From: a virus
Length of the DNA: 64,000 bases
IMG/VR virus record: IMGVR_UViG_3300021602_000003
Coordinates: 1-64,000 of that record
Reading direction: 5' to 3' (one strand)
The notes beneath the pieces are model-generated. The model saw only the letters and a program-made list of their open reading frames with translations. It searched no databases and was not told the DNA's origin. Below, one piece after another: positions 37,317 through 37,429 of the stretch. How positions within the stretch are numbered: the first letter of the stretch is position 1; each line of letters begins with the position of its first letter. The translations under genes and the position numbers were made by a program.

Positions 37317-37429
37317 AGTATAGTTTCAGCAAAATAAAAATCTTTTCATAAAAGAACGGTCGCGGTTCGAATCCGTGGTTCCCCGAAAGAGGAATTAGTG
37401 TAATGGTAGCATGTTAAAAAGCTATACTG
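37317..37429 (+). ncRNA. CAGCAA-stem RNA U5 with YrlA-like permuted tRNA domain
   Basis: AGTATAG-TTTCAGCAA; T arm CGCGG-TTCGAAT-CCGTG; 7-bp acceptor-like stem closed by GAAA; D arm; CTATACT-G. Confidence 0.8.

What the first reader, a model, noticed from the sequence alone, without database searches (positions are those of the whole stretch)
37317..37429. Circularly permuted tRNA mimic (YrlA architecture) inside the tRNA cluster
Seen in U5, 5' to 3': variable loop GGTC; T arm CGCGG-TTCGAAT-CCGTG; 7-bp acceptor-like stem GTTCCCC/GAGGAAT sealed by a GAAA tetraloop; TA; D arm GTGT-AATGGTA-GCAT. The CAGCAA stem takes the place of the anticodon arm. Established: bacterial YrlA RNAs have this T-AS-D order, with the Ro stem at the anticodon position. 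Inference: an unchargeable tRNA-elbow mimic, perhaps a decoy for tRNA-targeting defence enzymes or an adaptor.
Basis: partly seen in the sequence, partly recalled or inferred. Interest (0 to 1): 0.85.

Follow-up and report, generated by a model that had tools for sequence, protein, structure and literature searches.

The report
Phage Y-like RNA carrying permuted tRNA
This stretch of a large phage genome encodes a small RNA that is a complete tRNA turned inside out (sealed at the amino-acid end, opened near the anticodon arm) and closed by a conserved "handle". It belongs to a widespread RNA family, absent from Rfam and from the papers I could search, that sits beside a gene for a Ro60-like RNA-surveillance protein.

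Summary
The T arm, GAAA-capped 7-bp acceptor stem, U8-A9 and D arm are present as described. CAGCAA is an unpaired motif beside a 7-10 bp terminal stem, and this handle is inserted between tRNA positions 26 and 27.

Re-joined in silico, the RNA is called a 71-nt tRNA-Met(CAT) by ARAGORN. A covariance model built without it or its orthologue scores it 74.7 bits (E 7e-12). The family lies next to, and always on the strand of, a DUF2828/DUF7788 gene (window 34377-35816). That protein's predicted fold matches only Ro60/TROVE structures at E <= 1e-4.

The orthologue in a related contig keeps the handle and anticodon hairpin and shows compensatory changes in the T and acceptor stems, while the flanks are unrelated.

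Best reading: a Y-RNA-like partner of a phage Ro60-like protein. It resembles YrlA but is not a member of Rfam YrlA, and its topology is different. The decoy idea is untested.

This scan has reported the same RNA-protein pairing before in other genomes. I found no publication describing it.

The parts
37317..37429 (+). Whole RNA: handle plus circularly permuted complete tRNA-like body (about 113 nt; AAAG start 37315-37318, CTGA end 37427-37430)
   Evidence: R1 90.1 bits. Leave-out model R2 74.7 bits, E 6.6e-12, full-length. MFE fold gives the same helices.
37317..37332 (+). Handle, 5' side: stem strand AGTATAG (37317-37323), TTT, unpaired motif CAGCAA (37327-37332)
   Evidence: Handle helix is 94% paired, with changes on both sides at all 9 pairs, across 98 distinct sequences. 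100% identical in orthologue L120. Matches the conserved positions of the Dictyostelium Class I motif.
37340..37356 (+). Intact anticodon arm ATCTT/TTCATAA/AAGAA, anticodon CAT 37347-37349
   Evidence: Sequence. ARAGORN calls tRNA-Met(CAT) after un-permuting. The 15-nt hairpin TCTTTTCATAAAAGA is identical in L120. Nine further family members also give full tRNA calls.
37357..37377 (+). Variable loop CGGT and T arm CGCGG/TTCGAAT/CCGTG
   Evidence: T helix 97% paired in the family. C-G to G-C and G.T to A-T changes versus L120.
37378..37395 (+). Acceptor-like stem GTTCCCC/GAGGAAT sealed by GAAA tetraloop
   Evidence: L120 has GTATCTC/GTAA/GGGATAT: two pairs changed on both sides, the C.A mismatch becomes T.G, and the loop stays GNRA. 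Other members carry GNRA, UUCG or CUUG caps.
37396..37413 (+). T8 A9, D arm GTGT/AATGGTA/GCAT, G26
   Evidence: D helix 95% paired in the family.
37414..37428 (+). Handle, 3' side: A-rich TTAAAAAG and stem strand CTATACT
34377..35816 (+). Gene of the presumed protein partner: DUF2828 + DUF7788 (vWA with invariant D-x-S-x-S), predicted Ro60-like ring
   Evidence: Pfam. phrog_850 'RNA-binding protein'. AlphaFold model pLDDT 81. Foldseek top 13 hits are all Ro60/TROVE.
34213..34322 (+). Sister RNA just upstream of the gene: same handle, T arm and D arm, no acceptor stem, anticodon stem made from distal strands
   Evidence: R1 69.0 bits. R2 66.4 bits.
34102..34202 (+). Sister handle RNA with a cargo that is not tRNA-like
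   Evidence: R1 32.5 bits. R2 33.5 bits. Its best Rfam match is RF01414 Dicty_Class_I_RNA at 18.9 bits, below the cut-off.
36726..36808 (+). Possible variant handle RNA: AGAATGGT/ACCATTCT stem, TACTGCC in place of the motif, ends CTGT
   Evidence: Seen in the sequence only. Not found by R1 or R2.
36675..36702 (+). Consensus sigma-70-type promoter (TTGACA, 16 nt, TG-TATAAT) ahead of the tRNA/handle-RNA cluster
   Evidence: 12 of 12 match. A consensus match only.

Best explanation
The stretch encodes a stable non-coding RNA of a phage family built from two modules.

Module 1 is a conserved handle. It starts with AAG, has a 7-10 bp stem joining the 5' and 3' ends, an unpaired YYC(A/C)GCAA motif plus A-rich strands, and ends with CUG(U/A).

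Module 2 is a variable cargo. Here the cargo is a complete tRNA cloverleaf (Met/Ile2-type, anticodon CAU). Its acceptor end is sealed by a GNRA tetraloop and its backbone is opened between positions 26 and 27, where the handle is attached.

Shown: the structure, family membership, covariation, and the tight same-strand linkage to a gene whose protein is predicted to fold like Ro60.

Inferred:
- The RNA is cut out of the tRNA-cluster transcript by the enzymes that process the flanking tRNAs. The upstream tRNA-Ile ends 8 nt before it and the downstream tRNA starts 4 nt after it.
- The handle binds the Ro60-like protein, as Y RNA stems bind Ro60.
- The tRNA-shaped cargo then acts as an adaptor or gate. 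It presents a tRNA elbow and a real anticodon loop to tRNA-recognising enzymes (nucleases, modification, repair or CCA-adding enzymes), in a phage module for surveillance or repair of tRNAs. An RNA ligase gene lies 2 kb upstream.
For: - Leave-out model R2 scores the element 74.7 bits, E 6.6e-12.
- R1 gives 102 hits at E <= 0.01 in 80 DUF2828 loci plus the window. All are on the gene's strand, 60 lie within 400 nt of the gene's ends and none lies inside it.
- In 100 control phage tRNA-cluster loci, all 9 hits of 43 bits or more fall in the 6 loci that carry DUF2828.
- 90.5% of cells are paired against 38-45% when partners are slid, and 24 of 25 pairs change on both sides.
- Against orthologue L120 the flanks are unrelated, the handle and anticodon hairpin are identical, and the T and acceptor stems show compensatory changes.
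- Un-permuted, the element is called tRNA-Met(CAT), 71 nt.
- The protein's top 13 PDB fold matches are all Ro60/TROVE, full length, TM 0.40-0.61, E 1.6e-9 to 1e-4. The MIDAS motif is invariant.
- The same RNA lies beside the same protein in cultured phages: Whirlwind 72.5 bits, next to a gene annotated 'Ro-like RNA binding protein'; UAB_Phi87 65.1 bits.
- Published precedent: Ro60 binds adjacent Y RNAs with tRNA-like domains in bacteria and phages (PMC4201824, PMC12135203).
- RNA ligase at 31067-32086.
Against: - No expression, end-mapping or binding data exist. RNA-protein binding rests on gene linkage and fold similarity only.
- In this window the element is 1.5 kb from the gene, separated by a homing-endonuclease gene and three tRNAs.
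- The single-sequence folding energy is not exceptional (z = -1.46).
- The acceptor helix is only 73% paired in the wide alignment, which also holds tandem-tRNA false positives and members without an acceptor.
- The alignment used for pair counts was fitted to the model.
- The RNA ligase neighbour occurs only in close relatives.
- What the tRNA-like cargo does is unknown even for published YrlA.
Confidence: 0.75

Rival explanations
1. Decoy: the sealed tRNA look-alike, with its genuine anticodon loop, soaks up or misleads host tRNA-targeting defence nucleases or sensors. It may do this with or without the Ro-like protein.
For: An intact canonical anticodon loop in this element, with full tRNA calls for nine further members after un-permuting. 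The sealed acceptor prevents charging. The phage sits in a tRNA and RNA-ligase context typical of the arms race over tRNA cleavage.
Against: 16 of the 26 best family members give no tRNA call when re-joined at 26/27. Most of these form the anticodon stem from distal strands and so have no anticodon loop, and many sister RNAs carry no tRNA-like cargo, yet all share the handle and gene linkage. The called anticodons are diverse (CAT, TAT, GTA, GAT, GTT, TAG, TGA, CAA) rather than focused on known nuclease targets. No defence or anti-defence assay exists.
Confidence: 0.12
2. A working permuted tRNA gene. RNase P and 3' trimming plus CCA addition open the acceptor loop. The handle holds the two pieces together or directs their joining, giving a usable tRNA-Met/Ile.
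For: Un-permuted it is a full tRNA. The acceptor stem is 7 bp. M. smegmatis YrlA with a 7-bp stem is cut by RNase P and receives CCA in vivo (PMC4201824). Some family members carry N-CCA plus a spacer in the acceptor loop (L185 6728 and 6862, L127). No canonical tRNA-Met was found in the assembled 43% of the genome. The same genome has a permuted tmRNA.
Against: Here the loop is a tight GAAA tetraloop with no CCA, and the cap stays GNRA in the orthologue. That argues the cap is part of the mature RNA. A handle of about 40 nt at position 26/27 has no precedent in a decoding tRNA. Most relatives lack an anticodon loop or an acceptor stem. There is a C.A mismatch at pair 2-71.
Confidence: 0.05
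3. A decaying remnant of two adjacent tRNA genes, or a spacer of the pre-tRNA transcript, with no function of its own.
For: It lies inside a tRNA cluster. The family's N-CCA-spacer members look as if they were born from tandem tRNA copies. The folding energy is unremarkable.
Against: It is conserved as a discrete unit between contigs whose flanks are unrelated, with compensatory substitutions. It gets a strong leave-out model score. The family shows covariation, strand bias and gene linkage.
Confidence: 0.03

Closest known systems
YrlA (Rfam RF02553), the tRNA-like Y RNA bound by bacterial and mycobacteriophage Ro60/Rsr (Chen et al. 2014, PMC4201824)
   Same: 5'-3' terminal stem with an unpaired motif next to it. 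T arm, loop-closed acceptor stem and D arm in that order. tRNA tertiary-contact nucleotides kept. Encoded next to, and on the strand of, a gene for a Ro60-fold protein, often in tandem with sister RNAs (as with YrlA and YrlB).
   Different: No match to RF02553. The motif is YYC(A/C)GCAA, not GNCGAA. The partner belongs to Pfam DUF2828/DUF7788, not TROVE. This member keeps a whole anticodon arm and is opened at 26/27, whereas in YrlA the terminal helix takes the place of the anticodon arm. Other members of the new family do have the YrlA topology.
Yrl1/Yrl2 of Thermus phage phiLo with phage Ro60 (PMC12135203; PDB 9KOP, 9L5Y)
   Same: A phage-encoded Ro60-type ring with adjacent phage-encoded Y-like RNAs of stem-bulge-stem design. 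9KOP is the best structural match of the window's protein.
   Different: phiLo Ro60 is a recognised TROVE protein. Its RNAs carry a CGAA motif, and the paper as searched does not describe them as tRNA-like.
Dictyostelium Class I RNAs (Rfam RF01414; Kjellin et al. 2021, PMC7919456)
   Same: Starts with AAG and ends with CUGU. A short covarying stem joins the ends. An 11-nt motif next to the 5' strand has T3, C6, C9, A10 and A11 conserved; the window has AGTTTCAGCAA. The cargo is variable. RF01414 is the best Rfam match of a sister RNA (18.9 bits) and of a short phage handle RNA (33.8 bits, cut-off 41.5).
   Different: Class I RNAs are 42-65 nt, eukaryotic and without tRNA-like cargo. Their only reported direct binder is the RRM protein Rnp1A. 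All phage matches are below the Rfam cut-off, and this element itself gives no RF01414 hit.
Circularly permuted tRNA genes of Cyanidioschyzon merolae and some algae and archaea (from my own knowledge, not checked here)
   Same: The 3' half of a complete tRNA is encoded before the 5' half.
   Different: Those genes are matured through a circular intermediate by the eukaryal/archaeal splicing endonuclease into ordinary tRNAs. Here the acceptor is capped by a conserved tetraloop and the ends are held by a conserved protein-linked handle.

Membership tests
   R2: 74.7 bits, E 6.6e-12, model positions 1-128.
   AAAG-TATAG-TTT-CAGCAA ... CTATA-CTGA. Family consensus.
   The gene is at 34377-35816 (+), 1.5 kb upstream, with a homing-endonuclease gene between.
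YrlA (Rfam RF02553) | Reaches the Rfam gathering score (69 bits) | tested here: not met
   No RF02553 match at E <= 10 in 37200-37600 or in the whole 166-kb record. A family member in phage Whirlwind reaches only 38.3 bits, over the tRNA-like core.
YrlA (Rfam RF02553) | T arm - closed acceptor stem - D arm order with tRNA tertiary nucleotides | tested here: met
YrlA (Rfam RF02553) | GNCGAAN0-1G motif (Chen et al. 2014) | tested here: not met
   There is no G-N-C-G-A-A in 37317-37429 (read). The motif here is CAGCAA.
YrlA (Rfam RF02553) | Terminal (Ro-binding) helix occupies the anticodon-arm position | tested here: not met
   An intact anticodon arm is present at 37340-37356. The handle joins at 26/27.
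YrlA (Rfam RF02553) | Adjacent to an rsr gene (Pfam TROVE) and bound by its product | tested here: inconclusive
   PF05731 is absent from the record. The neighbouring protein has the Ro60 fold. Binding cannot be tested with these tools.
Dictyostelium Class I RNA (Rfam RF01414) | Gathering score 41.5 bits; length 42-65 nt | tested here: not met
   No RF01414 hit on this element at E <= 10. It is 113 nt long. Sister and short relatives reach 18.9 and 33.8 bits.
Dictyostelium Class I RNA (Rfam RF01414) | AAG start, short terminal stem, 11-nt motif with T3 C6 C9 A10 A11, CUGU end | tested here: met
   AAG; a 7-bp stem; AGTTTCAGCAA; ends CUGA, so the last base differs (against PMC7919456).
Canonical tRNA (RF00005 / ARAGORN) | Detected as a tRNA in the genomic order | tested here: not met
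   Not called by ARAGORN or RF00005. It is called tRNA-Met(CAT) only after in-silico un-permutation.
Ro60 (TROVE + vWA ring), for the neighbouring protein | Ro60 fold over the full length; MIDAS motif | tested here: met
   Foldseek ranks 1-13 are all Ro60/TROVE, 510-582 aligned columns. D270-x-S272-x-S274 is invariant. Sequence-level TROVE membership is not met.

The most novel reading that the evidence does not exclude
The handle may be the docking site of a second, very widespread Ro-type particle built on DUF2828 proteins. In that case this member would use a complete, anticodon-bearing but unchargeable tRNA as live bait. Tethered to the ring, it would capture host tRNA-cleaving defence enzymes, or hand cleaved tRNAs to the phage RNA ligase. 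The same handle in Dictyostelium Class I RNAs would then mean that those long-unexplained RNAs are Y-like RNAs of a eukaryotic DUF2828 protein.
Probability: 0.12. Interest if true: 0.85.

Novelty: new variant of a known kind. Interest (0 to 1): 0.68.

Why it matters
Ro60/Y-RNA particles are known from animals, some bacteria and a few phages, and the purpose of the tRNA-like part of bacterial Y RNAs is still unknown.

This element belongs to a parallel system with a different protein family, a different RNA handle and no Rfam entry. The protein has homologues in 709 cultured-phage records, including Felix O1-type, KVP40-type, Listeria, Staphylococcus, Campylobacter and cluster L mycobacteriophages, and in more than 500 metagenomic phage contigs. 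The RNA itself was found in 47 of the 81 DUF2828-bearing stretches searched and in the two cultured phages examined.

It offers genetically tractable models for asking what tRNA mimicry by Y RNAs is for. This particular member is the most complete mimic, because all four tRNA arms are kept. The handle shared with Dictyostelium Class I RNAs suggests a concrete candidate partner for those RNAs.

It also flags annotation errors: open reading frames are called over these RNAs in phage records.

Tried and rejected
- An exact or near-exact pattern of the element in viral contigs gave no match; the window's own record is excluded from that scan.
- A looser T-loop-to-D-loop pattern mostly returned tandem tRNA genes and needed a hairpin filter.
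- phmmer of the protein against PDB sequences gave nothing useful. Only the fold comparison showed Ro60.
- MAFFT alone misaligns the acceptor hairpin, so I used covariance models.
- A motif-plus-stem regular expression over the whole genome was too noisy to count copies.
- Supplementary tables of Chen et al. 2014 are not held. I therefore could not tell whether their mycobacteriophage YrlA set already included DUF2828-type phages.
- The protein atlas gave only the protein's own family. This left open whether dictyostelids encode DUF2828.
- The RNA ligase as a general neighbour was rejected. It occurs only in the three closest relatives.
- No paralogous canonical tRNA was found in the genome that could be the source of the cargo.
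- I did not use complex prediction, because it cannot take RNA.

Full report
**What is there**

The window comes from a 166-kb IMG/VR phage record estimated to be 43% complete. Between tRNA-Ile(TAT) (37235-37308) and an unusual tRNA (37434-37518), neither ARAGORN nor Rfam reports anything.

Reading 37315-37430 on the + strand gives, in order:
- AAAG
- stem strand AGTATAG
- TTT
- CAGCAA
- an A-rich spacer
- a hairpin ATCTT/TTCATAA/AAGAA
- CGGT
- T arm CGCGG/TTCGAAT/CCGTG
- GTTCCCC-GAAA-GAGGAAT
- TA
- D arm GTGT/AATGGTA/GCAT
- G
- TTAAAAAG
- stem strand CTATACT
- GA

The minimum-energy fold reproduces them, although the energy is not exceptional for this A+T-rich sequence (z = -1.46).

It follows that CAGCAA is not a stem replacing the anticodon arm. 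The terminal stem with its motif (the 'handle') is attached between tRNA positions 26 and 27.

I re-joined the pieces in silico in the order: acceptor 5' strand, D arm, G26, anticodon arm, variable loop, T arm, acceptor 3' strand. ARAGORN then calls a 71-nt tRNA-Met(CAT). No close paralogue among the genome's own tRNAs was found.

**It is a family**

A loose pattern scan of viral contigs followed by a hairpin filter found other T arm / capped acceptor / D arm elements with GNRA, UUCG or CUUG caps. Seven of the 118 fetched loci also encoded a homologue of the window's gene at 34377-35816, which is Pfam DUF2828 + DUF7788.

I then fetched 80 viral loci through that protein; more than 525 relatives exist. 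A descriptor scan found the element beside the gene in many of them. These elements share:
- a terminal stem
- a YYC(A/C)GCAA motif directly after its 5' strand
- an A-run before its 3' strand
- AAG and CUG(U/A) ends
- frequent tandem arrays

Covariance model R1 gave 102 hits at E <= 0.01 in those loci plus the window. All are on the strand of the gene, 60 lie within 400 nt of its ends and none lies inside it.

In 100 other phage tRNA-cluster loci, all nine hits of 43 bits or more fell in the six loci that carry DUF2828. Weaker hits there are tandem tRNAs.

On the model alignment, 90.5% of cells pair against 38-45% when partners are slid by 1-3 columns. Twenty-four of 25 pairs change on both sides. 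By helix, pairing is: handle 94%, T stem 97%, D stem 95%, acceptor 73%. The alignment is fitted to the model, and it includes members without an acceptor as well as some tandem-tRNA false positives.

**Membership of this element**

Model R2 was built without the window element and without its orthologue L120. It scores the element 74.7 bits, E 6.6e-12, full length, as the best hit in the window.

R2 also finds two sister RNAs just upstream of the gene:
- 34213-34322 (66.4 bits): handle, T arm and D arm, but no acceptor stem.
- 34102-34202 (33.5 bits): the cargo is not tRNA-like.

**Orthologue comparison**

Contig L120 has a protein 93% identical. There the flanking sequences do not align, but the element does:
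- The handle and the 15-nt anticodon hairpin are identical.
- The T stem has C-G to G-C and G.T to A-T changes.
- The acceptor stem has two pairs changed on both sides, and the C.A mismatch becomes T.G.
- The cap changes from GAAA to GTAA, so it is still GNRA.

This argues against a decaying spacer, and it suggests the cap belongs to the mature RNA.

**Two topologies**

Among the 26 best family members, ten give a full tRNA call when re-joined at 26/27. The called anticodons are CAT (this element and L120), TAT, GTA (twice), GAT, GTT, TAG, TGA and CAA. The other 16 give no call; most form the anticodon stem from the strand before the variable loop and the strand after the D arm, which is the YrlA arrangement.

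Some members carry N-CCA plus a spacer in the acceptor loop. They look as if they arose from tandem tRNA copies.

**The protein**

An AlphaFold model built from a 38-sequence alignment has mean pLDDT 81. Against the PDB, ranks 1-13 are all Ro60/TROVE structures: phage phiLo Ro60 (9KOP, 9L5Y), Xenopus, human and Deinococcus Ro60. E-values run from 1.6e-9 to 1e-4 and TM-scores from 0.40 to 0.61, over the full length. From rank 14 on, the matches listed are far weaker (E >= 0.014) and cover only the C-terminal half, mostly isolated vWA/MIDAS domains.

The MIDAS D-x-S-x-S motif is invariant. Pfam TROVE does not hit, even at E = 10. PHROGs names the family 'RNA-binding protein'.

Homologues occur in 709 cultured-phage records. 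In cluster L mycobacteriophages the gene is annotated 'Ro-like RNA binding protein' and belongs to DUF2828/DUF7788.

In Whirlwind an R1 hit of 72.5 bits lies just downstream of that gene. Its core also matches Rfam YrlA, but only at 38.3 bits against a cut-off of 69. In the Felix O1-type phage UAB_Phi87 an R1 hit of 65.1 bits lies in the tRNA cluster after the gene, under an annotated opposite-strand ORF.

**Context in the window**

The order of features is:
- RNA ligase 31067-32086
- two unknown ORFs
- handle RNAs
- the Ro60-like gene
- a homing-endonuclease gene on the other strand, 35813-36592, which explains the 1.5-kb gap
- a 12/12 consensus promoter at 36675-36702
- a possible variant handle RNA
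- tRNAs Thr, Gly and Ile
- this element
- an odd tRNA

The element starts 8 nt after the CCA of tRNA-Ile and ends 4 nt before the next tRNA. Ordinary tRNA processing could therefore release it; this is inference.

**Comparison with known systems**

The published YrlA RNAs (PMC4201824) share the architecture and the Ro60 linkage. M. smegmatis YrlA, which has a 7-bp acceptor stem, is cut by RNase P and receives CCA.

This element fails three tests for YrlA membership. It does not match the RF02553 model. It lacks the GNCGAA motif. It does not have the rule that the terminal helix replaces the anticodon arm.

The handle does match the description of Dictyostelium Class I RNAs: AAG start, CUGU end, a covarying terminal stem, and an 11-nt motif with T3, C6, C9, A10 and A11 (PMC7919456). 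RF01414 is the best, though sub-threshold, Rfam match of sister and short relatives (18.9 and 33.8 bits).

I found no paper describing the DUF2828-linked RNAs. Earlier notes of this scan report the same pairing in other genomes and in this one. I re-derived the evidence independently before reading them, and afterwards tested the Class I lead myself.

**Verdict**

This is a real, conserved, structured RNA. It is a Y-RNA-like partner (inferred) of a phage Ro60-like protein, and its cargo is a complete tRNA permuted at position 26/27 with a tetraloop-sealed acceptor.

The function of the cargo is open. The more likely reading is an adaptor or gate for tRNA-recognising enzymes in tRNA surveillance or repair. 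Less likely readings are a decoy, a processed working tRNA, or a remnant.

Noticed in passing
window 37434-37518 (+): An unannotated tRNA with an 8-bp acceptor stem, 4-bp T stem, 6-bp D stem with a 4-nt loop, a long variable arm, anticodon CGA and encoded CCA. It matches tRNA-Sec RF01852 at 45.2 bits, just under the 47-bit cut-off, and ARAGORN misses it. It resembles the 8/4 'allo-tRNAs' described from metagenomes (from my own knowledge).
   Followed up: partly
window 34213-34322 (+) and 34102-34202 (+): Two sister handle RNAs directly upstream of the Ro60-like gene. One has T and D arms but no acceptor stem (R2 66.4 bits). The other has a cargo that is not tRNA-like (33.5 bits), and its best Rfam match is Dictyostelium Class I RNA at 18.9 bits.
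   Followed up: partly
window 36726-36808 (+): A possible variant handle RNA right after a consensus promoter: stem AGAATGGT/ACCATTCT, ends CTGT, but TACTGCC in place of the usual motif. Not detected by R1 or R2.
   Followed up: no
window 17901-18224 (+): Permuted (two-piece) tmRNA gene, RF04321 at 68.1 bits. Related phage loci L192 and L193 carry one too.
   Followed up: no
window 23325-23398 (+): tRNA with anticodon CTA (amber suppressor type), called tRNA-Pyl by ARAGORN. It hints at stop-codon reading or recoding in this phage.
   Followed up: no
window 31067-32086 (+): RNA ligase gene (PF09414 plus the PHA02142 OB domain; phrog_968) 2 kb upstream of the handle-RNA array. It is conserved next to the Ro60-like gene only in the closest relatives L120, L122 and L126.
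   Followed up: partly
window 35813-36592 (-) and 38802-39491 (+): Two homing-endonuclease-like genes (phrog_655/314; NUMOD3) inserted in the tRNA/Ro-like region. The first separates the Ro60-like gene from the tRNA cluster.
   Followed up: no
L122:7741-7841 (+): The positional orthologue of the finding in an 85%-related contig keeps the same handle (GTATAGTTT/AAGCTATAC) and a T arm. It has a different anticodon-like hairpin (loop CTTGAAA) and no clear acceptor or D arm, so the cargo turns over faster than the handle.
   Followed up: partly
L201:5355-5486 (+) = Enterobacteria phage UAB_Phi87 NC_027360: A family member (R1 65.1 bits) lies under an annotated opposite-strand 'hypothetical protein' CDS (Phi87_08), which is probably a mis-call. 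The nearby 'Pseudo (tRNA-Tyr)' matches tRNA-Sec weakly.
   Followed up: no
L197:1016-1479 (+): A GOLLD RNA (RF02032, 203.5 bits) lies in the same tRNA cluster as a handle RNA and the DUF2828 gene of another phage contig.
   Followed up: no
L005 (-) about 995-1117; L061, L116, L045, L030: Capped-acceptor T/AS/D elements in contigs where no DUF2828 gene lay within the fetched stretch. L005 is G+C-rich with a YrlA-like distal stem. I did not check whether a TROVE or DUF2828 gene lies further away.
   Followed up: no
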